A DNA stretch of 29,682 bases from positions 1-29,682 of IMG/VR virus record IMGVR_UViG_3300023184_000396; one strand, written 5' to 3'. The notes beneath the pieces are model-generated. The model did no database searches. It saw only the letters and a list, made by a program, of their open reading frames with translations, and had not been told where the DNA came from. The DNA is from a virus (Duplodnaviria > Caudoviricetes). Numbering within the stretch: position 1 is the first letter of the stretch; every line of letters starts with the position of its first letter. The translations under genes were made by a program, and so were the position numbers. Below are positions 491-21,419 of this stretch, one piece after another.

Positions 491-570
491 TAATACCGCT
501 TGCGCCGTCCGTCGATCCGTAGTTCAAAGTGAATGCCGGGTCGATCCGGCGAACGCAGAAAGGATAGCAA
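491..570 (+). promoter_or_regulatory. Repeated early promoter/leader module, copy 1
   Basis: TTGCGC(500-505)-17 nt-TTCAAA, then GTGAAT-GCCGG hairpin-GAACGCAGAAAGGATA before ATG 572. Confidence 0.7.
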
Positions 571-3542: not shown

Positions 3543-3600
3543 TCCCCTTGCCTCCCGCGACGCGAGAGGCGACGATAGCAACCACAGAAAGGATATCGAC
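3538..3600 (+). promoter_or_regulatory. Early promoter/RBS module, degenerate copy 4
   Basis: AATAAT, TTGCCT(3548-3553)-17 nt-GACGAT, CAGAAAGGATA before ATG 3601; no leader hairpin. Confidence 0.55.
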
Positions 3601-3855
3601 ATGACCGCTCATAGCATTCAGAGCCACGCAGGCGGGGCGCGACCGTGGCCGCCCGGCCGCAACTACTTCGTTTACAATGCCGGGACCGGCACCTATTACG
3701 CCGGCACCGTCACGGAAGGCTATGCCCCCGCGCTGCGCCTCGCGCGCGACCGCGCGACCGCGGCAGCCTTCACCTTGAAGTCAGAGGCGAGCAACGTGCA
3801 ACGCCGCCTTGTCCGCCGTCAGCGCGGCTGGATCGTGGTAGGAGCTTCGCCGTGA
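3601..3855 (+). CDS. Hypothetical early protein
   Basis: ATG after AGAAAGGA RBS; start revised from 3496. Confidence 0.65.
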   Translation: MTAHSIQSHAGGARPWPPGRNYFVYNAGTGTYYAGTVTEGYAPALRLARDRATAAAFTLKSEASNVQRRLVRRQRGWIVVGASP

Positions 3856-4244
3856 ATTGGAAATATTGTCTAAGCGTGCCGCCCGGCTTCACCGAGGAAG
3901 AATTGCGCGACTTCATGAAAGGGCGTCTAGGCGTTAGCCCCGTTTTCTTAGAGCCTGCTAAGAAGCGCATTTTGGTCGGCGGGAGTACCAACGAGATGGC
4001 AATTGAGGAGGCGCAAGATTTGTGGCGCGCTATGTCGCTTCGCGGGATCGTTAGCCGTCTCACGGCCTATGCCCTGCCGCGCTGCCCGTTCTGCGGCGGC
4101 GAGAACACGGAAACCGGAGCCTATCCGGTTCCCCGTATTAACCAAGGGTTTTACGTCACGTTCTGTCGCGATTGCGGGGCGGGCGGGCCGAACAAGCCCA
4201 CCGCCGAGGCCGCGGAAGCCGCATGGGAGAGGCGCGCGCAATGA
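3852..4244 (+). CDS. Protein with C-terminal Lar-family (restriction alleviation) Zn finger
   Basis: CPFCGG...CRDCGAGGP...AEAAEAAWERRA; AGGAG RBS and GTGA overlap. Confidence 0.7.
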   Translation: MNWKYCLSVPPGFTEEELRDFMKGRLGVSPVFLEPAKKRILVGGSTNEMAIEEAQDLWRAMSLRGIVSRLTAYALPRCPFCGGENTETGAYPVPRINQGFYVTFCRDCGAGGPNKPTAEAAEAAWERRAQ

Positions 4245-5167
4245 TTGGACAATCCCCTCAACTGATTGTCGGAGCCGGCCTAGCGGGCCTGCTAGCGGCG
4301 CATGCGTGGCCGGGGATACCTCTCTTGGAGGTATCCCCGGGACCGGGCGCCGGCCACCGCGCGCTGCTCCGGTTTCGCAGCGACGCCGTGAGCCGTCTAA
4401 CCGGAATCGACTTCCGCAAGGTGATCGTCCGCAAGGGCATCTGGTCCAACGGCCGGTTCGTCGCGCCCACCATCGCCCGCGCTAACGCCTATTCGTTTAA
4501 GGTGCTAGGAGAATACACCTCCGACCGCTCAATCTGGAATATCGACCCGGTGACGCGCTTCGTTGCGCCAGAGTCGTTCTATGATCAGCTAGTCGAGTAT
4601 GCCGGCAGCCGCATTCAATGGAATACGCCGTGCGACTTCTCGTCCCCGAATATCGCGTCGCCGATCATCTCGACGGCGCCGCTCGATAGCACCCTAGCCG
4701 CATGCGGGATGCGCCCGTTGGAAATGAAGCGGGCAGCAATCGGCGTTGCGCGCTTCCGCATCCCGGGCGCCGATCTATTCCAGACGGTCTATTTTCCGGA
4801 CGCAGAGTTAGGCGTTTATCGCGCCTCGATCACTGACGATCTTCTTATCATCGAGACGGCGGACGGCACCCCCGGTGTGCTTAGCGCCGAAATTGCGGCA
4901 GTCGAGCGCGCGCTGGGCATCCCTTACGACCGCTGGCGTGTTCTCGATGAAAGCAAGCAAAAATACGGCAAGATCATCCCGTTGCAGGATGAAGTGCGCA
5001 AGTCGATCCTTTTCCAGCTAACCCACGATCATGGGATATACAGCCTAGGCCGGTTCGCGACGTGGCGAAACGTCCTGCTAGACGACGTGGTGGACGACAT
5101 CGTAGTTATCAAGCGTCTGCTGCGCTCCGGCGATAAGTACGACGTTGCCCGGGCACGCGCATCGTGA
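4241..5167 (+). CDS. FAD/NAD(P)-dependent oxidoreductase (UDP-galactopyranose mutase-like fold)
   Basis: LIVGAGLAGLLAA dinucleotide-binding motif; C-terminal YSLGRFATWRNVLLDDVV resembling the UGM GR motif; ATGA overlap. Confidence 0.75.
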   Translation: MIGQSPQLIVGAGLAGLLAAHAWPGIPLLEVSPGPGAGHRALLRFRSDAVSRLTGIDFRKVIVRKGIWSNGRFVAPTIARANAYSFKVLGEYTSDRSIWNIDPVTRFVAPESFYDQLVEYAGSRIQWNTPCDFSSPNIASPIISTAPLDSTLAACGMRPLEMKRAAIGVARFRIPGADLFQTVYFPDAELGVYRASITDDLLIIETADGTPGVLSAEIAAVERALGIPYDRWRVLDESKQKYGKIIPLQDEVRKSILFQLTHDHGIYSLGRFATWRNVLLDDVVDDIVVIKRLLRSGDKYDVARARAS

Positions 5168-5418
5168 ACGCCCGGTGGCGCTGCCGGTTTTGCGCGACGA
5201 CCGGCTGGGGTAATATCGTGCCGCATGATCGCCCGGACGGCGATAGTTGCCGGCCCTCCGGGCAGCTATCGGAGGCGAAGAGCAAGGCCGCGCTCGCGCG
5301 ACGGCTGAGAGATAGTGACGGGGTGAAGCATCCCGTTACCGCGGCCCGGATTACGGCTGAGACGACCACTATAGTCGCACCGGGCCGCCCCTATTTGAAG
5401 GAGACGAACGATGGCTGA
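5164..5418 (+). CDS. Small Cys-containing hypothetical protein
   Basis: GTGA overlap; CRFC...H...C. Confidence 0.5.
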   Translation: MNARWRCRFCATTGWGNIVPHDRPDGDSCRPSGQLSEAKSKAALARRLRDSDGVKHPVTAARITAETTTIVAPGRPYLKETNDG

Positions 5419-5575
5419 TGAAAAGACGGAAGCGCGCGGCGAAGATACCGGCGAGTCGATCATGCTGATCGATAAGGACGGAAATGAAGTTCCGGTGCCG
5501 CCGATGTCGAAAAAGAAAAACGTCACCCTCCATATCTATCTGCCGAAAGACGGCGGCGATGAGGCGATGTCATGA
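5411..5575 (+). CDS. Small acidic protein (54 aa), not in ORF track
   Basis: AAGGAG RBS; MADEKTEARGED...NVTLHIYLPKDGGDEAMS*; ATGA-coupled to the ART gene. Confidence 0.65.
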   Translation: MADEKTEARGEDTGESIMLIDKDGNEVPVPPMSKKKNVTLHIYLPKDGGDEAMS

Positions 5576-6912
5576 TCCGGGCCGTGATGGTGTTTGACGA
5601 CGCTTCCTTTAAGGAAGGTGAGCACAAACGCGATAAGGGCGGGAAGTTCTCCACAACAGGCGGCGGGGGCGGCTCCTCCTCCGCTTCGCCTTCGTCAACC
5701 GCCGAAGGCGAAGCGGAGACGAAAGGCGGCGGCAAGTATCACGTCCATTACAAGATGGTATCGCTGCTGAAAGACAACGGCTTCAAGCAGGCGAAGGGCG
5801 GCCCGACTCCGGACAACAATTTTCATTTCGATCACCCGTCCGGCGCGAAGGTAGTCATCCATCCGCATCCGGAGGGAAAGAAAAGCTCCACCGAGTACAC
5901 GCTAGAGAAGCCGGGCAGCGAGCCGCTAAAGGGCAGCGGCCTAGCCCTTAAGAAGCTCCTAGACCTCGCGGTGGAGAAGCAAACCGCCGCTAATCCGCCG
6001 GCCGCGGAACCGCCGAAGGCCGAACCGCCTGCGACTATCGAGAAGCTCAATGAAGCCCTCGCGGCGCCAACCGCGAAACCTAAGGATCTCGCGGCAACGC
6101 TTATCGATAAAGGCTACAATTTCGAGAAAGCAATCGGAGACAAGCAGCACGTATCCGTGTTCAAGAAAGGTGACGCGAAGGTTGAGTTCGATCTAGACAA
6201 GGACACTTGGCTTGCATCAACGCCCGGCTACCAGACGAAGGAAGGCAGCGGCGCGGAGAACCTCGCGGACTTGCTCGCGGGCGGCAAGGCCACCGAGAAG
6301 AACGGTGAGTTTACTTGGAAAAATTCCTCCAAGACAACCTTGGCCGCAGGAACGTCGAGCGGCGGCGCTGCGCCATCGGGCAACACGGCGAACGAGCCGC
6401 CGGAGAACGCCACTCACAAGATGCTCGCGAAGGCCGCGCCCGCCGCGAGCGACGCGGAAGAGAAGGCGATCAGCGACTACACCGGCAGTTCGTACAAAGC
6501 TTGGAATAACAGCCTGCGACATGATCCGCATTTCGCCGCAACGGATATGCGGACTAAGCGGCTCGATCAATACCTCGCGCGCGCAACGATCCCGGAGGAC
6601 GTTACGCTATATCGCAAAATCGGCGGCGAGTTCGCGCAACATCTATTCTCTGTCCTGTTTGAGGGCGCAAAGTATAGCGACAAGGGATACAGCAGTACGT
6701 CCACGCACGAAGAGGTGTGGCACGGCGAAGTGAAAATGATTATCGATGTCAAGAAAGGAGCGAAGGGCGCGAGCGTTAAGGCAATCTCTGCGCACGGCAA
6801 GGAAAATGAAGTATTGCTGGCGCGCGATACTCGATACATCGTTAACAAGATCGATCACGCAACGAAAACCCTGCACGTTTCGATAGACCAAGACCACGTC
6901 CCGAAAGGATAA
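5572..6912 (+). CDS. ADP-ribosyltransferase (VIP2/Alt-like, R-S-E clade) with N-terminal repeats
   Basis: YTGSSYKAWNNSLR, LYR, YSSTS and ENEVLL motifs in the C-terminal domain. Confidence 0.88.
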   Translation: MIRAVMVFDDASFKEGEHKRDKGGKFSTTGGGGGSSSASPSSTAEGEAETKGGGKYHVHYKMVSLLKDNGFKQAKGGPTPDNNFHFDHPSGAKVVIHPHPEGKKSSTEYTLEKPGSEPLKGSGLALKKLLDLAVEKQTAANPPAAEPPKAEPPATIEKLNEALAAPTAKPKDLAATLIDKGYNFEKAIGDKQHVSVFKKGDAKVEFDLDKDTWLASTPGYQTKEGSGAENLADLLAGGKATEKNGEFTWKNSSKTTLAAGTSSGGAAPSGNTANEPPENATHKMLAKAAPAASDAEEKAISDYTGSSYKAWNNSLRHDPHFAATDMRTKRLDQYLARATIPEDVTLYRKIGGEFAQHLFSVLFEGAKYSDKGYSSTSTHEEVWHGEVKMIIDVKKGAKGASVKAISAHGKENEVLLARDTRYIVNKIDHATKTLHVSIDQDHVPKG

Positions 6913-6917
6913 CCATC

Positions 6918-7640
6918 ATGAAAGCTACCCTAATCTCCTACACCCCGCACGCCGTCGAGCTTTTGCTATTCACAAAATCGACTCGTTTGAATATGGCACC
7001 GTCGCTGCTAAACGAAATCCACGAATGGTCGCCCAAGAAGAAAGCCGCAGAGCTAGATTATATGGCGCGCACCATTCCTAGCTCGTGGGAGTTTGTGGAC
7101 TACGTGTTTTTGCTGGAAGGCGTTAGCCGCGCCTTCACCCATCAGCTAGTGCGGACGCGCCACGGTTCCTATGCGCAACAGAGCTTGCGCGTCGTGGACG
7201 CGGGGGCTTTCGATTACGTGCATACCGCGCGGAGCAGGGCGGACGAAACCACGGCCCAGACTATCGAATATGCAATGGGCAATGTCCAAGCCGCGTATCG
7301 TAAATTGCGAAATTGCGGACTGCCGACAGAGGACGCGCGCGGCATCCTGCCCACGAACATCGCCACGAACATCGTAGCCAAGTTCAACCTCCGGACCTTC
7401 GCGGAGCTTGCCCGCTCGCGGACCGGCGGCCGGACGCAGGGCGAGTATCAGGACGTATTGAACGCCATGGCAGACGCGGCGGTTGCCGTCCACCCGTGGC
7501 TGCCGCTCTTCCTTTTCCCGAAGGGTCGTGACGCCTTCGCGGAAATCGAGGCTTTCGCGACGCGCACCTTCCCCGATGACCTCGCGAAGAAGGGCGAGCT
7601 TTTGAAGATCGTTGACGCGATGCGCAAGGGGGAATCGTGA
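6918..7640 (+). CDS. thyX: FAD-dependent thymidylate synthase (ThyX)-family protein, atypical
   Basis: SRAFTHQLVRTRHGSYAQQSLR (RHRxxSxxxxSxR variant), EDARGILP, NLR. Confidence 0.85.
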   Translation: MKATLISYTPHAVELLLFTKSTRLNMAPSLLNEIHEWSPKKKAAELDYMARTIPSSWEFVDYVFLLEGVSRAFTHQLVRTRHGSYAQQSLRVVDAGAFDYVHTARSRADETTAQTIEYAMGNVQAAYRKLRNCGLPTEDARGILPTNIATNIVAKFNLRTFAELARSRTGGRTQGEYQDVLNAMADAAVAVHPWLPLFLFPKGRDAFAEIEAFATRTFPDDLAKKGELLKIVDAMRKGES

Positions 7641-7831
7641 TGCGCGGCGATCTAATCGATATCACCGTGATGATCGAACGGGAGACTGAGAAGGCATGGG
7701 GCCTGAATAACGGCACGGCGCCGCTTATCTGGATTCCGAAAAGCATGAGTGAAGTGGACGACCGCAAGCCGAACGGCCTAGCAACGATGACGCTGCCGGA
7801 AAACTTCGCGAAAGAGAAGGGGTTGATATGA
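7637..7831 (+). CDS. Small phage protein
   Basis: RETEKAW...WIPKS...EKGLI; overlaps both neighbours. Confidence 0.7.
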   Translation: MMRGDLIDITVMIERETEKAWGLNNGTAPLIWIPKSMSEVDDRKPNGLATMTLPENFAKEKGLI

Positions 7832-8277
7832 GTACGGTGGAATACGATAGAAACGGAAATATAACGGCGTACCGCGCGCATGAGCCGCCGGTCGTGGAAA
7901 CTTACGGAGAGCAGGCGACAGGAAAATCGGCGGGGAAGATAGCCGCGCCTAAGCGTTCACCGACTGTCCCGGAGATACTAGAGGCAGCGGCCGAGACGTA
8001 CCGCGCGCGCAACGCGATATACGGCGACAACTACAAGAACACCGGCGCCGTCATGCGGGCGCTTTTCCCGGACGGCGTGAAGCTCGTAACGGAGGACGAT
8101 TTCAACCGTTGGTGTCTATTCGAGCTAGTGATCGTGAAGCTAACGCGCTTCACCAACTCCGGCCTAACGCATATCGATTCAATGCACGACACGGCAGTCT
8201 ATGCCGCGATGCTCGAAAGCATGACACCGCCCGACGCTGCCGCAGTCTTTTCCCTTCCTAGAAAGGAAACCAAATGA
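7828..8277 (+). CDS. DUF6378/nucleotide-modification-associated all-alpha protein (putative dNTP pyrophosphatase)
   Basis: RNAIYGDNY...KLTRF...HIDSMHDTAVYAAM pattern. Confidence 0.65.
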   Translation: MSTVEYDRNGNITAYRAHEPPVVETYGEQATGKSAGKIAAPKRSPTVPEILEAAAETYRARNAIYGDNYKNTGAVMRALFPDGVKLVTEDDFNRWCLFELVIVKLTRFTNSGLTHIDSMHDTAVYAAMLESMTPPDAAAVFSLPRKETK

Positions 8278-8957
8278 GCCGTGTTCTCGTCACCGGATCA
8301 GCATCCGGCCTAGGCTCCGAGATTGTCGTGGCGCTGCGCTACGCGAATCACAACGTGATCGAGTTCGATTACATCTACGGGCGCGATGTTCGCGACCCTG
8401 TGAGAACATGGGGCGAAACTCCGCCCAACGACCTAGACGTGCTCATCAACTGCGCCGGGGTAAACCGTCTAGGCTGGCTGGAGAATTTCGCAGAACGCGA
8501 CTGGGACGACGTTATGGATACGAACGTCAAGGGAATATTCAAAATGGTGCAGTGGTGCCTGCCGTCCCTGACCGATACGAAAGGCACGATCATCAACATC
8601 GTCTCGAATGCCTCGCACGTCCCGATGACGTGTAGCTCGGCATACAACGCGAGCAAGGGCGCCGCGCATATCCTCACGCTCCAGATGGCGCGCGAGCTAG
8701 GCAAGCGGCACGGTATCACCGTTTTCGGAATCTCTCCCAACAAGATGGCTGGCACAGAGATGAGCCGCGCGCTTGAGCCGCAAGTCGAAGCCCTTCGCGG
8801 CTGGACGCCGGAGGAAGCGCGCGCCTATCAGCTTGCCGCGCTGCCGGCGGGAGCCGAGACGCCGCCCGCGCTCATCGCGGAGTTTATCGCCTTCCTGCTC
8901 TCTTCTAAGGAGCGGCATCGGTTCCTCGCAGGTACGGTGATTCCATATGGTGCATGA
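8274..8957 (+). CDS. Short-chain dehydrogenase/reductase (SDR)
   Basis: TGSASGLG, DVLINCAG, IINIVS, YNASK catalytic motif. Confidence 0.92.
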   Translation: MSRVLVTGSASGLGSEIVVALRYANHNVIEFDYIYGRDVRDPVRTWGETPPNDLDVLINCAGVNRLGWLENFAERDWDDVMDTNVKGIFKMVQWCLPSLTDTKGTIINIVSNASHVPMTCSSAYNASKGAAHILTLQMARELGKRHGITVFGISPNKMAGTEMSRALEPQVEALRGWTPEEARAYQLAALPAGAETPPALIAEFIAFLLSSKERHRFLAGTVIPYGA

Positions 8958-9144
8958 TGCGCGCCTGACTAGCTGGATGATAATCGAGAGAGCAACGCGC
9001 AAGGTTATCTGCGAAACATTTAAACCTGTCGTGGTTTCTTCGATCAATATCTCGAAATACGAAGCGGTCCCTATTCTTCAATATTTGCAGTCGTTAAATA
9101 TGCCCTTGCCGCGCCCGAAGGCGACGGCTAAGCTGGACGCATAA
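8947..9144 (+). CDS. Small phage protein
   Basis: SWMII...ETF...INISKYEAVPILQYL; fills the intergenic gap. Confidence 0.6.
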   Translation: MVHDARLTSWMIIERATRKVICETFKPVVVSSINISKYEAVPILQYLQSLNMPLPRPKATAKLDA

Positions 9145-9156
9145 AGGAGAAAAAGG

Positions 9157-9828
9157 ATGGCTAGATTCACGATAGACGCAATCGCGCTTGCGCCGCCGAG
9201 CGCGGCAAAGGCGATTGAGCTTCTAACGATGCTGGGCCTCGATGAATGGTCGTCGGATATCGCGAAGGCAGGCGGCGTTACTCGCGGATCGATTGAAGAG
9301 TTGTACGAAGCGGAATTGCATTTCAACACTCAGGCGACCGGCGGTGCCCCTTTGCTGGAAATCGTAGACTACAAAAAAGGGGCGCCTTGGTTTGACGCGA
9401 GCTGCGTTAGCCATCTCGGCACGCATTGTTCAGAAGAAGAGCTAAAGGAATGGAAAGCGAAATTTACCTTTTTCGGCATCCCGGTGGCGAAAGAAGCGTT
9501 CACCTATTCTCACACCAACCCCGCTATCGCAGGGAAGCGGCGATATCATTACGTGATATTCGACACACGCGCCGTGCTGGGCGTCGATCTGGAGTTCATC
9601 GTTAGGAGAGATGCGCGAACGCAGCGGCGCGTCAAATATATCGGCTCGGCTCCGGGGTTGGTTGGGAAAACCGCGTTAGCCGCCAATACGGATTACGGAG
9701 ATGCGGGAAACATTATTCGCGTTCAATTTGACGATCCGGAATTGGTTTATCACGATGTGCGACTAAGCGTAGGCTGGCATGCTTGGCCTAGGTCGTTGTT
9801 CAAGTATATCGATGAGGACGATTCATGA
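9157..9828 (+). CDS. VOC/glyoxalase-superfamily protein (methylmalonyl-CoA epimerase-like) with extra C-terminal domain
   Basis: LLEIVDY, SHLGTH, YVIFDTRAVLGVDLEFI; AAGGAG RBS. Confidence 0.65.
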   Translation: MARFTIDAIALAPPSAAKAIELLTMLGLDEWSSDIAKAGGVTRGSIEELYEAELHFNTQATGGAPLLEIVDYKKGAPWFDASCVSHLGTHCSEEELKEWKAKFTFFGIPVAKEAFTYSHTNPAIAGKRRYHYVIFDTRAVLGVDLEFIVRRDARTQRRVKYIGSAPGLVGKTALAANTDYGDAGNIIRVQFDDPELVYHDVRLSVGWHAWPRSLFKYIDEDDS

Positions 9829-10361
9829 AAAACGTCCTAGTTTGGGATACGGAGACAACGGGATTACCGTTGCACCCGGCGGCGGCCCTCGCGTTGCAGC
9901 CTCACGTTATCGAGTTTGGCTGCGCGATCCTGAGCGGCAAGACCGGCAAGCTTATCGAGACGCGCGAGTGGCTAATTAACCCGGGTGTCCCACTGCCGCC
10001 GATCATCACGAAAATCACCGGGATCACTAGCGAAGACTTGCAGGGCAAGCCTTCGTTTGCTGCCGCGTGGCCGGCTATCGCGGCGACGTTCACGGAGTGC
10101 GGTTTAGCGATTGCCCACAATGAGCCCTTCGACCACAGCATGATAGAGTTTGAGTTAACTCGCTTAGGCCAGACGGATTTTATCTGGCCTAAGCGGTTGT
10201 GCACTATCGGCCTGTTCCGCGGCGCCTTCGGGTATGACATGAAACTCACCGATCTATACGCAAACGTGACCGGGCGAACGCTAGACCAGAAACACCGCGC
10301 GGCCGGCGACGTTTCCGCACTCGTGGAAATCGTGCAGGAGGGCGGATTGTGGAAGCTGTAG
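9825..10361 (+). CDS. dnaQ: DEDDh 3'-5' exonuclease (Pol III epsilon-like)
   Basis: WDTETTGL, AHNEPFD, HRAAGDV. Confidence 0.92.
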   Translation: MKNVLVWDTETTGLPLHPAAALALQPHVIEFGCAILSGKTGKLIETREWLINPGVPLPPIITKITGITSEDLQGKPSFAAAWPAIAATFTECGLAIAHNEPFDHSMIEFELTRLGQTDFIWPKRLCTIGLFRGAFGYDMKLTDLYANVTGRTLDQKHRAAGDVSALVEIVQEGGLWKL

Positions 10362-10525
10362 TTAGCGACGAAGGCGCGGCATGGGCATTAGGATACAGCG
10401 CGTGGAAATTGCGAATGCCTGCCATATCGCCTTTCCTTCCCGGAACGAGAAATCACTCAAAATGGGGCGAAGGTTGGGAAGCCGCGAATCGCGAGCATAT
10501 CCGCCGCGAAAAGAGGAAGGCATGA
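10349..10525 (+). CDS. Rmf/CrpP-like small protein (58 aa), not in ORF track
   Basis: AGGAGG RBS, GTG start, ATGA overlap with dnaE; AWALGYSA...PF...KWGEGWEAA. Confidence 0.6.
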   Translation: MEAVVSDEGAAWALGYSAWKLRMPAISPFLPGTRNHSKWGEGWEAANREHIRREKRKA

Positions 10526-13311
10526 AACTCGCGCAACTCCGCATCCGCACTGAGTTTAGCTTTCGGCAGGCTTTCGGGCCGTTGCCCCGGGTAGCCTCCG
10601 CGCTGGAGGCTACCGGCTGCCCGGCGGCCGGGATCGTGGACGATAGCACTTGGGGACACGTCCGGTGGGGTGCTGCGCTGGCTGCCGTGGGCGTAAAGCC
10701 CCTATTCGGTACGACCGTGGCCGTCCCTAGCCCGGACGGCGCCCGACGCCCTCTAGCGTGGGCGCTAGCCCGGGAAACTCGGGCCTTCTATCGGTTCTCG
10801 ACGGCAGCACGGCTGCCGGGCGCAGACGTGCAAGCCCTATTCCGGGCCGGCGGAGGTGCTGCCGTGCGCTTCGCAGGGGCGGCCCTCACGGACCCGGAGG
10901 ATTTCGACTATATCGATATCAATCCGGGCAGTCCCGTAATGACGGCCCGGGCGCTAGCCCTCGCCAAGAAGACCGGAAAACCTCTAGTCGTCACCTCCGA
11001 CAACCTCTATCCGACGCCCGCAGATAAGGCGGCGTTTCAGGCGATGGGCGGGCGCGAACGGACGACACCGCAACATATCCTTTCCCTCGATGAGCTTCGG
11101 ATTGCGCTGCCGGAACTATCTAAGGCTCAATTCAACCGCGCCATCGAAAATAACCTAGCGGTCGCGGAAGCGTGCGCGAGCGTCCTGCCGGCTGCGCCCC
11201 TAATCAAGGTGAAGGGTGATTTCCGAAAGATGGTCGAGGCCGGACGCAAGTCGCGTCTCGCCCGTGGCCATCTCCCGGGCTGGCCTCCCGAATACGCAGC
11301 ACGACTAAAGCGGGAAATCCTCGCCATTGAAGCGAAGGAATATCAATCGTACTTTCTCGTTGTGGCGGACCTAGTGCAGTGGGCGAAGAAACATATGCTA
11401 GTCGGCCCGGGCCGCGGTTCGTCTGCCGGCTCCCTGCTTTGCTACCTCGTCGGCATCACGGAGGTGGACCCTATCCCGCACGGCCTGCTGTTCGAGCGCT
11501 TCATCGATTTAACGCGAAAGGACTTGCCCGATATCGATATCGACTTCAACGACAACAAACGCGAGATGGTGTTCAAATACCTCGCAGAAAAGTACGGCGC
11601 CGCGAACGTCTCCCGCATCGGAAACATATCGACGCTTCAGGCTCGCAGCGTCCTCGCGGAAGCGTGCAAGCGCCTAGGCATCCCGGACCGCGAGAAGTTC
11701 GACCTGTTCAACGTCCTTATCGAGCATAGCAGCGGCGACGCTCGTTACGGCAAGGGCGTCGAGGACACCCTAACCGAAACCGAGGTGGGACGAAGCTTCG
11801 CGCGACGCTATCCAGAATCGGCTATCATCACCAACCTCGAAAACCATTCATGGCATACCTCCGTCCACGCCGCGGGGGTGATCGTCTCTAATGAAGCGGT
11901 AAGCGACTATTGCACTGTCGTGGACGGGGTTGCCCAGATCGATAAGCCGGACGCCGAAAAGCTAAACCTGTTGAAGATCGACGCGCTGGGCCTGCGCACA
12001 TTAGGGATTATCGAGGACGCGGGAGTCGTTACGCCGGAGGAGCTTTACAGCCTGAAGCTCGATGACCCCAAGGTGATGGATATTTTCAACGCGCATCGTT
12101 ATAGCTCCATCTTCCAATTCGAGGGTTTCAGCCAGCGTCGCGTTGCGTCGCTAGTCCACATCGATAGCTTTCGCACTATCGATCATATCACGGCGCTCGC
12201 GCGGCCCGGGCCGCTGGGCGGCGGCGCGACCGACAAATATGTTCTGCGCAAGGCCGGCAAGCAAGAGATAGAGGCCGCACACCCGCTTATCGCGAAGATG
12301 CTAGAAGACACTTACGGTGTCGTCCTGTACCAAGAACAGGTGATGAAGATCGTCCGGGAGATAGGGAAATTTTCTTGGGAGGACACGACCGTTATCCGCA
12401 AGTCTATGAGCGGCAGCAAGGGCGTCGAATTTTTCAACCGTTACGAAGAGCAATTCGTGAAGGGGGCCGCGGGCGACGATATTAGCGACGGCACCGCACG
12501 GATCATCTGGCGGGAAATATGCGCCTTCGGAGCTTGGGGCATGAACCGCGCTCATACCTGTTCATACGCCGTCATAAGCTATTGGTGCGCGTGGATGAAA
12601 GTTTATCACCCCCTAGAGTTCGCCGCGGCCTGCCTTCGCGGCGCGAAAGACGACGACGGGGCGGTATCGGTTTTGCGCGAGATGGCGACTGAACATATCG
12701 GGTATATTCCGTTCGACATCGAGCGCAGCGCGGAGGACTGGAGCGTCATCGACGGGCATCTAGTCGGTGGGTGGAAAAACTTAGTCGGCATCGGGCCGGC
12801 GAAGGCGAAGGCGGCGCTAGAGGCCCGGGCCGGGGGGAAGCTGGACCGGGCGAAGTATGCAAAGCATGAGGTGAAATTCTCGGAGCTTTACCCGCTGAAG
12901 ACCCGGTACGCCGACTTGATCGCTAACCCGGAAAAGTATGGGTGCCGTGAAGGGTCTCAAGTCGTAACCGCCGACCTGTTTCCGGAATCGGGCGACGTGC
13001 TTTACATCGGACGCCTCATCGAGAAGCGACAGAACGATAGCAACGAAGGCCGCCGCGTGCAGAAACGGGGCGGCAAGTTGCTGAAAGGCCCCACCCTTTT
13101 CGTGGACCTGATCCTGAAAGACGACTCTGGAATGGTTTTTATGTTCCGCATAGGCCGATTCGATTTCATGCCGCTCGGAAAGATCGCTTTTGAGAACCTT
13201 AAGGAAGGTGACGACTTGCTAGTGCGCGCCCGGCGCATTGCGAACTATCATTTCGCGGTAATCGAACGGCTTAAGTGCCTCAACCGACCGGAGGCGCTCG
13301 ATGGCGCGTAA
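10522..13311 (+). CDS. dnaE: DNA polymerase III alpha subunit (family C)
   Basis: GPGRGSSAGSL, LLFERF, DLPDIDIDF, HAAGVIV, KIDALGL, YQEQVM; start revised to ATG 10522 after GAGGAAGG. Confidence 0.96.
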   Translation: MKLAQLRIRTEFSFRQAFGPLPRVASALEATGCPAAGIVDDSTWGHVRWGAALAAVGVKPLFGTTVAVPSPDGARRPLAWALARETRAFYRFSTAARLPGADVQALFRAGGGAAVRFAGAALTDPEDFDYIDINPGSPVMTARALALAKKTGKPLVVTSDNLYPTPADKAAFQAMGGRERTTPQHILSLDELRIALPELSKAQFNRAIENNLAVAEACASVLPAAPLIKVKGDFRKMVEAGRKSRLARGHLPGWPPEYAARLKREILAIEAKEYQSYFLVVADLVQWAKKHMLVGPGRGSSAGSLLCYLVGITEVDPIPHGLLFERFIDLTRKDLPDIDIDFNDNKREMVFKYLAEKYGAANVSRIGNISTLQARSVLAEACKRLGIPDREKFDLFNVLIEHSSGDARYGKGVEDTLTETEVGRSFARRYPESAIITNLENHSWHTSVHAAGVIVSNEAVSDYCTVVDGVAQIDKPDAEKLNLLKIDALGLRTLGIIEDAGVVTPEELYSLKLDDPKVMDIFNAHRYSSIFQFEGFSQRRVASLVHIDSFRTIDHITALARPGPLGGGATDKYVLRKAGKQEIEAAHPLIAKMLEDTYGVVLYQEQVMKIVREIGKFSWEDTTVIRKSMSGSKGVEFFNRYEEQFVKGAAGDDISDGTARIIWREICAFGAWGMNRAHTCSYAVISYWCAWMKVYHPLEFAAACLRGAKDDDGAVSVLREMATEHIGYIPFDIERSAEDWSVIDGHLVGGWKNLVGIGPAKAKAALEARAGGKLDRAKYAKHEVKFSELYPLKTRYADLIANPEKYGCREGSQVVTADLFPESGDVLYIGRLIEKRQNDSNEGRRVQKRGGKLLKGPTLFVDLILKDDSGMVFMFRIGRFDFMPLGKIAFENLKEGDDLLVRARRIANYHFAVIERLKCLNRPEALDGA

Positions 13312-13708
13312 GCCGGAGCAACTACTGTGGGACCGCAAACGGCGGGCATTGCCGCGCGCTATCCATATTGAACGCATTGAGAACCTAGTCGGCGCCGGCA
13401 CCCCGGACCAATGCGCGATCTATTGCGGCCGGGTGACGTGGATGGAAGATAAGATTGCTCACACGCCGAAGCGCTCTAGCACCCGTCTCCAGTTTAATCA
13501 CCCGTTGGAGCCGGAACAATGCAACTGGCACCTAAACTGGTATCAAAAGGGCGGAACGAGCATCATCGTTATTGATGTTATCGCGCGAGGGATTTTCATG
13601 GTGCCCGGCTTCGCGGCGGACGAAGTGAATGAGATGACTGCCGAAAGCATCGCGCGCTACGCCGCGACGTGGACGAGCATTGACCGATATCTGAGGAATC
13701 ACCGATGA
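13301..13708 (+). CDS. VRR-NUC / PD-(D/E)xK nuclease (Holliday junction resolvase-like)
   Basis: RIEN...GTPD...WMEDK...PEQxxWH...GG. Confidence 0.75.
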
Positions 13709-14371
13709 AGCCGCTGGCGCTTGATCTTTTTTGCGGCGCGGGCGGCGCGTCGATGGGGCTACATCGCGCCGGTTTCACCGTGATCGGCGTCGATATAAAG
13801 CCTCAGCCGCGCTATCCGTTTTCGTTCATCCAAGGTGACGCGCTGCGCTATCCGTTAACCGGCTTCGATCTAGTTTGGGCATCGCCGCCGTGCCAAGGGT
13901 ATTCCGAAATGAGGCACGCGCCGGGCGCGCTAGGCACCGCACCGAAATTGATTGGGAAAGTGAGAGACAGATTGCAGTCGGTTAACGCTTTATACGTTAT
14001 CGAAAATGTCCGGGCCGCGGCAGCCGAAATGCGCGCGCCAATTACGCTTTGTGGATCGATGTTTGATCTAGGCGCACAAGGTTGCCAATTGCAACGGCAT
14101 AGATTGTTTGAAATCAATTTCAAGATCGCGGTGCCGCAATGCGCCCATCGCGGCCCGGCAATTGGGGTTTACGGCGGCCACGCGCGAAAGCGCTCCGCTG
14201 CCCACGGCGGACGCGGCACTAAAGACGCCTTGGAAAGGCGGGCATCGCGCGGCGGAAAGCGAGGCATTAGGAATAGACTGGATGACGCTGTCCGAAATGA
14301 GCGAATCGATCCCGCCCGCCTATGCGGAGTATATCGGCAGGGCCGCGAGGAAGGAGCTTGAGACGAAATGA
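13705..14371 (+). pseudogene. DNA (cytosine-5) methyltransferase, frameshifted near 14230
   Basis: [24 protein letters not shown] in one frame; GIDWMT...[13 protein letters not shown] in the +1 frame. Confidence 0.8.
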
Positions 14372-20452: not shown

Positions 20453-20727
20453 AGGGCCATGCCTCGTTTGAGGATTTGACCCCGGAAGACCAAGCCGCGG
20501 CAGTCGCCTATTGGCGCGACCAGTCAGTGAAGCTAGACGCCGCGCACCCGCTAATCCGGTGGATCGTTAACCATGCGGATCGTCCGGAGGAAGTGAATAA
20601 AATCGTCCGTGGCTCCTCCGTGACGCCTATCCGGCAGGGCGGCCGGCGGGTCGCGGTCATCCGGATAAGCACCCTCACCTATTTGCACATCGAGATGGAC
20701 CGGCGGGCGCCGATGCCGCCGCGCTAG
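20449..20727 (+). CDS. Hypothetical protein
   Basis: ATGA overlap; its 3' end is duplicated at 21303-21389. Confidence 0.6.
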   Translation: MKGHASFEDLTPEDQAAAVAYWRDQSVKLDAAHPLIRWIVNHADRPEEVNKIVRGSSVTPIRQGGRRVAVIRISTLTYLHIEMDRRAPMPPR

Positions 20728-20756
20728 CGCAACCGATAATTTTATCCACCGACCAC

Positions 20757-21280: not shown

Positions 21281-21302
21281 CCCTCCTACATCCGCCGCTC
21301 AC

Positions 21303-21392
21303 GGGCGATGGATCGCGGTCCTGAAAATGGGGACGATCACCTATCTGCATATCGAGATGGGCCCGCGCGCGCCGATGCCGCCGCGCTAGCGC
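21303..21392 (+). repeat. Diverged duplicate of the 3' end of gene 20449-20727
   Basis: GRWIAVLKMGTITYLHIEMGPRAPMPPR* versus GRRVAVIRISTLTYLHIEMDRRAPMPPR*; identical GCGCCGATGCCGCCGCGCTAGCGC. Confidence 0.85.
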
Positions 21393-21419
21393 TACGATAA
21401 AAATAATTGAAGAAAAGAC

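What the first reader, a model, noticed from the sequence alone, without database searches (positions are those of the whole stretch)
4241..13311. Candidate undescribed DNA base-modification pathway: atypical ThyX + FAD enzyme + SDR + VOC + pyrophosphatase-like protein feeding a phage DnaE
Seen: a co-oriented, largely overlapping gene run with a UGM-like FAD oxidoreductase, a ThyX homologue, a DUF6378/all-alpha protein, an intact SDR and a VOC protein, directly upstream of dnaQ and dnaE. Established: dTMP synthesis by ThyX needs no SDR, VOC or second flavoenzyme, and phages with modified bases typically combine a thymidylate-synthase homologue, a dNTP-removing pyrophosphatase and their own polymerase. 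Inference: SDR/VOC/FAD enzymes build or tailor a non-methyl (possibly sugar- or aldehyde-derived) substituent on a pyrimidine nucleotide that DnaE then incorporates.
Basis: partly seen in the sequence, partly recalled or inferred. Interest (0 to 1): 0.9.

Follow-up and report, generated by a model that had tools for sequence, protein, structure and literature searches.

The report
Phage sugar-thymine gene cassette
This bacterial virus carries, beside its DNA polymerase, a conserved set of enzyme genes whose core it shares with therapeutic Pseudomonas phages reported to have a sugar-bearing thymine in their DNA, and the set likely makes such an unusual DNA letter by joining a sugar chain to uracil, a step that is inferred and untested.

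Summary
The gene run is real and conserved. A UGM-fold flavoprotein, an altered ThyX and DUF6378 form the core; SDR+VOC is an optional pair, gained and lost together (39 of 59 spanning loci, always in this order). The core is that of Pbunavirus F8/14-1, whose DNA a 2025 preprint reports to carry sugar-derived thymidines (362/390 u); my paper searches found no genes assigned. This ThyX clade keeps dUMP-side arginines but lacks the folate-stacking His53 and catalytic Tyr91 (0 of 84). F8's 362 u equals tetrahydroxypentyl-dU, extending the SP-15/Carin-5 (+88) and YerA41 (+104) series; those three phages carry a different divergent ThyX plus SDRs. Best reading (0.45): a pentose chain is coupled to dUMP C5 through a flavin adduct, and SDR+VOC remove hydroxyls. 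Against: TG-specificity in F8, no dTMP kinase, and in this phage no HAD phosphatase, a drifted VOC (12 of 56 conserved columns) and TG-site avoidance like unmodified controls. Corrections: pyrophosphatase role of DUF6378 is unsupported; an ADP-ribosyltransferase gene interrupts the run. The scan noted this module before on four other genomes.

The parts
4241..5167 (+). Flavoprotein of the UGM/protoporphyrinogen-oxidase fold, 308 aa, GxGxxG at N-terminus; ortholog of F8 gp65 / PB1 gp68 (44% identity); core gene
   Evidence: phrog_4828 E 5e-87; AlphaFold pLDDT 92; fold searches; blastp to F8 (95)
5164..5575 (+). Two small unknown ORFs (5164-5418, 5411-5575), not conserved in the module
5572..6912 (+). 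ADP-ribosyltransferase-domain protein (C-terminal PF03496) inserted between flavoprotein and ThyX; not part of the conserved module
   Evidence: no hit in any of the 87 loci searched
6918..7640 (+). Atypical ThyX: His53->Ile, His79->Thr, Tyr91->Val (T. maritima numbering); Arg78, Arg80, Ser88, Arg90, Arg147, Arg174 kept; clade-specific Lys20, Thr22, Arg172; core gene
7637..7831 (+). Small phage ORF (phrog_8389), present in 3 of the loci clustered
7828..8277 (+). DUF6378 all-helical domain, stand-alone here; fused to or next to a HAD phosphatase in most relatives; function not established; core gene
8274..8957 (+). Classical SDR with intact TGxxxGxG, Ser111, Tyr124-x3-Lys128; accessory, travels with VOC
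   Evidence: 1 deviation in 86 conserved columns
8947..9144 (+). Small phage ORF (phrog_25603)
9157..9828 (+). VOC (glyoxalase-fold) protein, residues 1-152, plus a 70-aa tail absent from relatives; deviates at 12 of 56 conserved columns including Gln8->Ala and Lys146->Glu
9825..10361 (+). DnaQ-like 3'-5' exonuclease
   Evidence: PF00929 E 1e-20
10349..10525 (+). 58-aa ORF filling the gap between dnaQ and dnaE
   Evidence: phrog_6189, E 0.011, weak
10522..13311 (+). Phage DnaE (Pol III alpha), 929 aa from the ATG at 10522 that follows a purine-rich ribosome site; 43-47% identical to F8, Bas99, XcP1 polymerases

Best explanation
This is a Pbunavirus-type (Lindbergviridae-like) replication module carrying a conserved flavoprotein-ThyX-DUF6378 core plus an optional SDR-VOC pair, and it likely builds a sugar-chain thymidine substitute by coupling a pentose to C5 of dUMP. 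Shown: gene content, order, linkage, folds and the altered ThyX site. Inferred step 1: the UGM-fold flavoprotein and/or the ThyX flavin would hold an aldopentose (probably ribose 5-phosphate or a nucleotide-sugar) as a flavin-N5 adduct, in place of the formaldehyde-level carbon that ordinary ThyX takes from folate. Inferred step 2: uracil C5 would attack it and FADH2 reduce the link, giving 5-(tetrahydroxypentyl)-dUMP, 362 u as nucleoside, the mass reported for F8. Inferred step 3: the HAD enzyme, absent from this contig, would remove the chain's terminal phosphate. Inferred step 4: VOC (dehydration or isomerisation) and SDR (NAD(P)H reduction) would strip one or two hydroxyls, towards 346 or 330 u. 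Inferred step 5: after phosphorylation by unidentified kinases, DnaE/DnaQ would place it at a fraction of T positions, protecting against restriction. I put 0.75 on the core making a modified T in this clade and 0.45 on this particular route; in this phage the VOC step may be altered or decaying.
For: Linkage: flavoprotein in 52 of 53 ThyX loci with at least 3.4 kb upstream; of 59 loci spanning ThyX to DnaQ, 57 have DUF6378, 56 a HAD, 39 SDR+VOC, 3 SDR alone, none VOC alone (best 80 of 236 IMG/VR matches, near-duplicates not removed). SDR+VOC needs at least 6 gains or losses on the ThyX tree; L022 and L033 have 96% identical ThyX, one with and one without the pair. Other loci carry a carbamoyltransferase, a methyltransferase or radical-SAM+FkbM gene in the same place, enzyme types that act on hydroxyls or small metabolites (own knowledge). 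ThyX site: His53 and Tyr91 absent in 84 of 84 clade sequences; His53 in 0 of 98 and Tyr91 in 1 of 99 among the best 100 cluster representatives, reappearing in the weakest third, which checks the alignment. PMC11940539 calls His53 the folate-stacking residue, Tyr91 strictly conserved, and describes a flavin carbinolamine made from free formaldehyde. F8 and 14-1 share the core and carry sugar-derived T, 362 and 390 u; F8, Bas99, XcP1, PY059YO380 and RHph_TM3_3_6 have no ThyA-family gene (0 of 5), so the known hmdU route is missing. Mass series T+88, +104, +120 equals di-, tri-, tetrahydroxypentyl-dU; SP-15's side chain takes label from ribose and is made as a triphosphate (titles and text in 28); SP-15, YerA41 and Carin-5 each encode a divergent Thy1 and an SDR, adjacent in SP-15. 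TG-containing 6-bp palindromes are not avoided in kin (median O/E 1.03 against 0.71 for other T sites, higher in 33 of 34 loci; F8 1.05), while 4 control phages give 0.57-0.85. Bas98-101 resist most R-M systems with no known mechanism; native nanopore sequencing failed for 10 Pbunaviruses.
Against: No experiment ties these genes to the base. F8's modification is reported in a TG context at about a quarter of T, matching TG/T = 0.27: this suits a DNA-level enzyme better than a pooled nucleotide. No thymidylate-kinase gene over cut-off in 5 of 5 kin genomes. F8 and 14-1 have 94% identical ThyX and 97% identical flavoprotein yet different reported masses. 362 u fits an O-linked tetritol on hmdU equally well. 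The SP-15-type Thy1 is a separate family (hhalign probability 19%, E 0.001) and those phages have no detectable flavoprotein or VOC homologue (searches lacked a positive control). In this window TG palindromes are at 0.80, below all 34 kin and inside the control range, with 4 of 12 strongly depleted; XcP1 shows no TG contrast either (0.86 vs 0.86). The VOC is the most drifted of 40 and no HAD was found. The ThyX still passes the TIGR02170 thyX cut-off, narrowly (91.9 vs 87.9). The UGM fold is shared with oxidases and desaturases, so fold does not give function.
Confidence: 0.45

Rival explanations
1. The same genes make the modification, but on DNA after replication: one of the core proteins reads TG steps, and the UGM-fold flavoprotein acts as a flavin-dependent sugar transferase onto T, U or hydroxymethyl-U, with ThyX supplying a precursor base; SDR+VOC rework the sugar donor.
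For: TG context and about 25% substitution in F8; no kinase gene; the flavoprotein has many invariant Arg/Lys (51); 390 u fits an hmdU-O-pentoside; flavin enzymes acting on DNA bases are known from PaMx11 gp47.
Against: No 5-hmdU DNA kinase, aGPT-Pplase or glycosyltransferase is annotated in the 50 kb of F8 read (the first 16 kb not read, no profile search run); ThyX model is an ordinary ThyX fold without a DNA-binding addition; SP-15's polyol chain is made before replication.
Confidence: 0.25
2. The ThyX makes plain dTMP by a variant route (the second flavoprotein supplies reduced flavin or a non-folate one-carbon unit), SDR+VOC are unrelated metabolic extras, and the modified T of Pbunaviruses comes from other, unrecognised genes.
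For: Passes TIGR02170; dUMP-side arginines and RxR motif kept; no ThyA in kin, so this is their only thymidylate-synthase-like gene; the window avoids many T-containing restriction sites as unmodified phages do.
Against: Loss of His53 and Tyr91 throughout the clade and Ser88->Ala in 27 of 146 representatives; fixed pairing with flavoprotein, HAD and DUF6378 and swappable tailoring-type genes in the same slot; a parallel set (FAD protein, HAD, SDR, His53-less ThyX, DnaE) in Gordonia phage Sadboi.
Confidence: 0.15
3. The clade makes a modified T as proposed, but in this phage the pathway is partly decayed or redirected, so its DNA is little modified and it relies on site avoidance.
For: VOC deviates at 12 of 56 conserved columns, median 0; no HAD in 29.7 kb; TG-site O/E 0.80; TG dinucleotide depleted (0.79) unlike kin (0.97-1.27); an unrelated gene splits the run.
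Against: Flavoprotein, ThyX and SDR deviate at only 2 of 63, 2 of 69 and 1 of 86 conserved columns; all frames are open; the contig is a fragment; Lys146->Glu could restore a usual VOC metal ligand (recalled), suggesting changed specificity rather than decay.
Confidence: 0.15

Closest known systems
TG-context hypermodified thymidine of Pbunavirus F8 (362 u) and 14-1 (390 u), bioRxiv 10.1101/2025.03.31.646159
   Same: Orthologous ThyX (41%), flavoprotein (44%), DUF6378 (40%), DnaQ, DnaE, helicase in the same order.
   Different: The window adds SDR+VOC, lacks the HAD domain, and shows no clear TG-site signal; the passages read assign no genes to the base.
Wifcevirus (Bas98-101), Carpasinavirus (XcP1), Myosmarvirus, Kyle, Pluto, Gekk3-15 replication modules
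   Same: Same five-gene set and order; VOC found in 51 phage records, none from Pseudomonas.
   Different: They keep a HAD-DUF6378 fusion; no nucleoside analysis found in my searches; window VOC is drifted.
5-(4',5'-dihydroxypentyl)uracil of Bacillus phage SP-15 and the +88/+104 linkers of Carin-5 and YerA41
   Same: Partial T replacement by a polyol chain at C5; genomes encode a divergent Thy1 and SDRs; masses form one series with F8 (89).
   Different: Their Thy1 is a separate 390-410-aa family (108, 112); no flavoprotein or VOC homologue detected; PolA-type polymerase, kinases and glycosyltransferases present.
Canonical flavin-dependent thymidylate synthase ThyX (T. maritima TM0449, PF02511, TIGR02170)
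   Same: Fold (TM about 0.7), family cut-offs passed, Arg78/80/90/147/174 and Ser88 kept.
   Different: His53, His79 and Tyr91 replaced; new invariant Lys20, Thr22, Arg172; fixed partner flavoprotein.
UDP-galactopyranose mutase (flavin-N5 sugar adduct chemistry)
   Same: Best fold match by two programs.
   Different: 12-20% identity, about 60-160 residues shorter, no Pfam GLF hit; virus-restricted (8 loci in 185,579 prokaryote genomes, all on short MAG contigs).
5-hmdU-based post-replicative hypermodification (M6, ViI, PaMx11, phiW-14)
   Same: Partial T modification, restriction defence, a flavoenzyme in PaMx11.
   Different: Needs a ThyA-family hydroxymethylase, absent in 5 of 5 kin, and amino-acid transferases not seen here.

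Membership tests
ThyX (canonical dTMP synthase) | Thy1 fold and family score | tested here: met
   PF02511 111 bits vs 24.8; TIGR02170 91.9 vs 87.9 (122); Foldseek E 4e-12 (68)
ThyX (canonical dTMP synthase) | RHRx7S motif | tested here: not met
   RTRx7S in the window; T/S/N at the His in 84 of 84 (100). His survives in 31 of 147 wider representatives. Motif name recalled.
ThyX (canonical dTMP synthase) | Folate-stacking His53 and catalytic Tyr91 | tested here: not met
   Ile53 and Val92; 0 of 84 keep either; roles from PMC11940539. T. maritima numbers assume a 12-residue tag on chain 3n0b.
ThyX (canonical dTMP synthase) | dUMP + methylene-THF -> dTMP activity | not testable with these tools
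   needs assay or thyA complementation
UDP-galactopyranose mutase | UGM/PPO fold with FAD-binding GxGxxG | tested here: met
UDP-galactopyranose mutase | Sequence family membership (GLF) and UDP-sugar site | tested here: inconclusive
   no Pfam, NCBIfam or PDB sequence hit; active-site residues not mapped on the model
All-alpha NTP pyrophosphatase (MazG/dUTPase-like) | Profile or structural match to MazG-type enzymes | tested here: inconclusive
   only DUF6378 in Pfam; no real PDB hit; Atlas neighbours all DUF6378 or unnamed; not folded against PDB. Kin encode a separate MazG (13-15).
Classical SDR | TGxxxGxG, Ser and YxxxK | tested here: met
   below every specific NCBIfam cut-off, so substrate unknown
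VOC superfamily | Glyoxalase-type profile | tested here: met
   through relatives L097 and L107 (47) aligned at 49% and 35% identity; the window protein itself has no hit
VOC superfamily | Four metal ligands (H/Q, E, H, E; recalled) | tested here: inconclusive
   family Q8, E68, H86, K146; window A8, E68, H86, E146 (100); ligand assignment by position, no model
Pbunavirus-type T-hypermodification locus | Flavoprotein + His53-less ThyX + DUF6378 beside DnaQ/DnaE | tested here: met
Pbunavirus-type T-hypermodification locus | HAD phosphatase | tested here: inconclusive
   not in the 29.7-kb contig (95, 96); the genome is incomplete
Pbunavirus-type T-hypermodification locus | Relaxed avoidance of TG-containing restriction sites | tested here: not met
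   0.80 vs kin minimum 0.84 and controls 0.57-0.85; indirect test, only 4 controls
SP-15-type dihydroxypentyl-uracil system | gp130-type long Thy1 | tested here: not met
   separate family (48, 82, 112)
SP-15-type dihydroxypentyl-uracil system | Polyol chain on C5, made as a triphosphate | not testable with these tools
   needs LC-MS and labelling

The most novel reading that the evidence does not exclude
A virus-specific ThyX branch has become a reductive sugar C-transferase: with a UGM-fold partner it joins a pentose to dUMP C5, and swappable SDR+VOC, carbamoyl- and methyltransferase genes set how many hydroxyls remain. One chemistry would then explain the therapeutic Pbunavirus base (362 u) and, through a second ThyX branch, the SP-15 dihydroxypentyluracil whose enzymes have been open since the 1970s; SDR+VOC phages would carry an unreported 330- or 346-u base.
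Probability: 0.35. Interest if true: 0.9.

Novelty: new variant of a known kind. Interest (0 to 1): 0.68.

Why it matters
Pbunaviruses are widely used therapeutic phages, and their modified thymine decides sensitivity to restriction and END nucleases, but I found no genes assigned to it. This locus names three candidate core genes and predicts a different base in cultured, easily grown phages (Bas98-101, XcP1, MyoSmar). If ThyX can carry a sugar instead of one carbon, that is a new C-C-forming flavin reaction on a nucleotide, and it offers a route to the long-open SP-15 biosynthesis.

Tried and rejected
ThyX-flavoprotein complex prediction gave no answer (ipSAE 0.00); not used either way. IMG/VR scan with the SDR found nothing because its patterns failed; SDR counts come from ThyX- and VOC-anchored loci. 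DUF6378 as pyrophosphatase: no support; a likeness to Nmad1/DUF1599 is recalled only, and the paper that defines it was not held. Direct orthology to SP-15 gp129/gp130: rejected. Orthology of Sadboi gp70 to the flavoprotein and gp75 to the VOC: not shown, though the gene set is parallel. VOC profile against PDB sequences: no real hit. Apparent ThyX fusions among representatives were inteins, endonucleases or probable chimeras. A difference in the core genes explaining 362 vs 390 u: none obvious. No tRNA or Rfam hit. Paper searches for a published gene assignment found none; the library lacks most subscription journals. PMC13307970, PMC4913046 and PMC12908700 held nothing of use. Rows dropped: three from the VOC alignment A3 (one had a stop, two were phage-record rows); the tree used 61 distinct rows.

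Full report
Setting. The window is a 29,682-base virus record, the whole of what is held. Early and replication genes run on the + strand and lysis and tail genes on the - strand (1, 4, 5). The replication block (DnaQ, DnaE, VRR-NUC-like, SNF2 helicase, Pam3 gp32-34-like) is 40-49% identical to that of Pbunavirus F8/PB1, Wifcevirus Bas99 and Carpasinavirus XcP1.

Observation. A 446-aa ADP-ribosyltransferase-domain gene and small ORFs lie inside the run; the former had no hit in the 87 loci. DnaE most likely starts at 10522.

Linkage. The flavoprotein matches 362 phage records, the VOC 51, none from Pseudomonas. XcP1 has the five genes back to back in the same order. In the best 80 of 236 IMG/VR ThyX loci (near-duplicates not removed), the flavoprotein is present in 52 of 53 with at least 3.4 kb upstream. 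Of 59 loci spanning ThyX to DnaQ, 39 have DUF6378+SDR+VOC, all in this order; 15 have DUF6378 only, 3 SDR without VOC, 2 none; 56 have a HAD phosphatase, which the window lacks. On a 61-row ThyX tree SDR+VOC needs 13 changes, at least 6 forced by well-supported branches; two loci with 96% identical ThyX differ in having the pair. Other loci place a carbamoyltransferase (3 loci, 2 of them near-identical), a methyltransferase, or radical-SAM plus FkbM genes in the block. So the core is flavoprotein, ThyX and HAD/DUF6378, with exchangeable tailoring genes. In 185,579 prokaryote genomes the flavoprotein occurs in 8 loci, all short MAG contigs and all beside this ThyX. Gordonia phage Sadboi has a parallel set with a His53-less ThyX and a related SDR; its FAD protein, found in 126 actinophage records, is not demonstrably orthologous.

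Proteins. The flavoprotein model (pLDDT 92) is closest to UDP-galactopyranose mutase (Z 20.4, rmsd 3.7 over 294 residues), with protoporphyrinogen oxidases close behind. That UGM works through a flavin-N5 sugar adduct is own knowledge, consistent with the title of 5hhf. The ThyX has the ThyX fold. Aligned to T. maritima ThyX (numbering assumes a 12-residue tag), it keeps Arg78, Arg80, Ser88, Arg90, Arg147 and Arg174 but has Ile, Thr and Val for His53, His79 and Tyr91. None of 84 clade sequences keeps His53 or Tyr91. Among 150 representatives from 1.84 billion proteins, His53 occurs in 0 of 98 and Tyr91 in 1 of 99 of the best 100, and both return in the weakest 50. PMC11940539 (passages) gives His53 as folate-stacking, Tyr91 and Ser88 as strictly conserved, and a flavin carbinolamine as the carbon carrier. 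The SDR is intact. The VOC family has Gln8, Glu68, His86, Lys146; the window copy has Ala8 and Glu146, deviates at 12 of 56 conserved columns against a median of 0, is the most divergent of 40, and has a 70-residue tail. DUF6378 could not be linked to pyrophosphatases.

Literature. bioRxiv 10.1101/2025.03.31.646159 (passages and section 8) reports thymidine derivatives of 362 u in F8 and 390 u in 14-1, about a quarter of T, in a TG context inferred from ten enzymes, read as a tetrose sugar alcohol and a cyclic aldopentose; its extended data were not seen. PMC11990801 (passages, section 16): Wifceviruses resist most R-M systems with no known mechanism. 10.64898/2026.07.08.737226 (passages): ten Pbunavirus native nanopore sets failed. 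PMC5977210 (passages): SP-15 has dihydroxypentyluracil made before replication, gene 129 an SDR, gene 130 a divergent Thy1; the ribose-labelling paper was seen only as a title in its reference list. PMC12686479 and PMC13697223 (passages; 71, 29): linkers of +88 (Carin-5) and +104 (YerA41) with a phosphate. PMC8989533 (passages): hmdU routes. PMC11385102 (first of two parts): gene table of a DV phage. Searches found no gene assignment for the Pbunavirus base.

Synthesis. T+88, +104 and +120 are the formulas of di-, tri- and tetrahydroxypentyl-dU. SP-15, YerA41 and Carin-5 each encode a long divergent Thy1 and at least one SDR; that Thy1 is a separate family from the window's, and by eye also lacks His53 and Tyr91 (inference). 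F8 and four kin have no ThyA-family gene (102). The simplest common chemistry is ThyX-type reductive alkylation with a pentose in place of formaldehyde, then removal of hydroxyls by an SDR with a dehydratase or isomerase. Every chemical step is inferred.

Results against. The TG context, matching TG/T of 0.27 in F8, and the lack of a thymidylate kinase (0 of 5 over cut-off) favour a DNA-level step, unless DnaE/DnaQ are context-selective. F8 and 14-1 differ in reported mass despite 94-97% identical core enzymes. Flavoprotein and VOC homologues were not found in SP-15-type phages (no positive control). The restriction-site test supports the clade (TG palindromes O/E median 1.03 vs 0.71, 33 of 34 loci; controls phiKMV, LUZ24, Xp10, T1 0.57-0.85) but not this phage (0.80; 4 of 12 TG sites depleted) or XcP1. 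The ThyX narrowly passes the canonical equivalog cut-off.

Verdict. A real, widespread, uncharacterised cassette, probably responsible for a modified thymidine already measured in relatives (0.75), most likely by sugar-to-C5 coupling (0.45), with SDR+VOC as an optional tailoring pair that may be altered in this phage. It is a new variant of a known kind, with a categorically new reaction as the upside. Four earlier notes of this scan describe the same module on other genomes; I tested their main claims here and do not count them as support.

Noticed in passing
window 5572-6912 (+): ADP-ribosyltransferase-domain protein (PF03496) with a long Gly/Lys-rich N-terminal part, inserted between flavoprotein and ThyX; probably a host-takeover or anti-defence enzyme acting on the bacterial host.
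   Followed up: partly
window 13705-14371 (+): C5-cytosine methyltransferase-like gene whose PHROG match (phrog_363) continues in a second frame (14108-14371): a frameshift or assembly error; no relative in my loci.
   Followed up: partly
window, whole: Strong avoidance of 6-bp restriction sites: 19 palindromes absent, e.g. CGATCG 0 vs 31 expected; GC-only sites barely avoided, CTAG not depleted, TA less depleted (0.89) and TG more depleted (0.79) than in kin.
   Followed up: partly
window 492-566, 881-955, 1707-1781 (and 3578-3604): Three 75-nt intergenic repeats ending in a ribosome-binding site, with an internal inverted segment; likely early promoter/operator units.
   Followed up: no
window 20640-20733 and 21302-21395: Two 94-nt copies, 79% identical, 662 nt apart, at the ends of small ORFs.
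   Followed up: no
window 9607-9828 (+): 70-aa tail on the VOC protein, absent from all aligned relatives; only a weak PHROG hit.
   Followed up: partly
L057/L059 6221-7933, L078 5537-7366: Carbamoyltransferase gene between flavoprotein and ThyX in loci without SDR+VOC: predicts a carbamoylated variant of the base.
   Followed up: partly
L105 5179-6859; L074 9793-10290: Radical-SAM/SPASM plus FkbM methyltransferase between SDR and VOC; a methyltransferase after DUF6378 in another locus.
   Followed up: partly
L030 5724-6086, L079 1955-2440: Pyrimidine-dimer glycosylase (PF03013) genes sit next to ThyX in 35 and 9 of the clustered loci.
   Followed up: no
L004 7865-17959 (Gordonia phage Sadboi): Parallel set in actinophages: FAD protein, HAD, small helical protein, methyltransferase, SDR, DnaE, MazG, His53-less ThyX; candidate unrecognised modified base.
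   Followed up: partly
L005 12645-19507 (Rhizobium phage RHph_TM3_3_6): A 207-kb phage carries the same core (flavoprotein, ThyX at 51%, HAD-DUF6378) without DnaE nearby; its relative RHph_TM30 is listed among SP-15-like polymerase phages.
   Followed up: partly
L007 25730-33106 (SP-15): Genes 127-135: nucleoside deoxyribosyltransferase-like protein (a possible source of sugar phosphate), SDR, divergent Thy1, kinase-like and HAD genes in one run; candidate dihydroxypentyluracil operon.
   Followed up: partly
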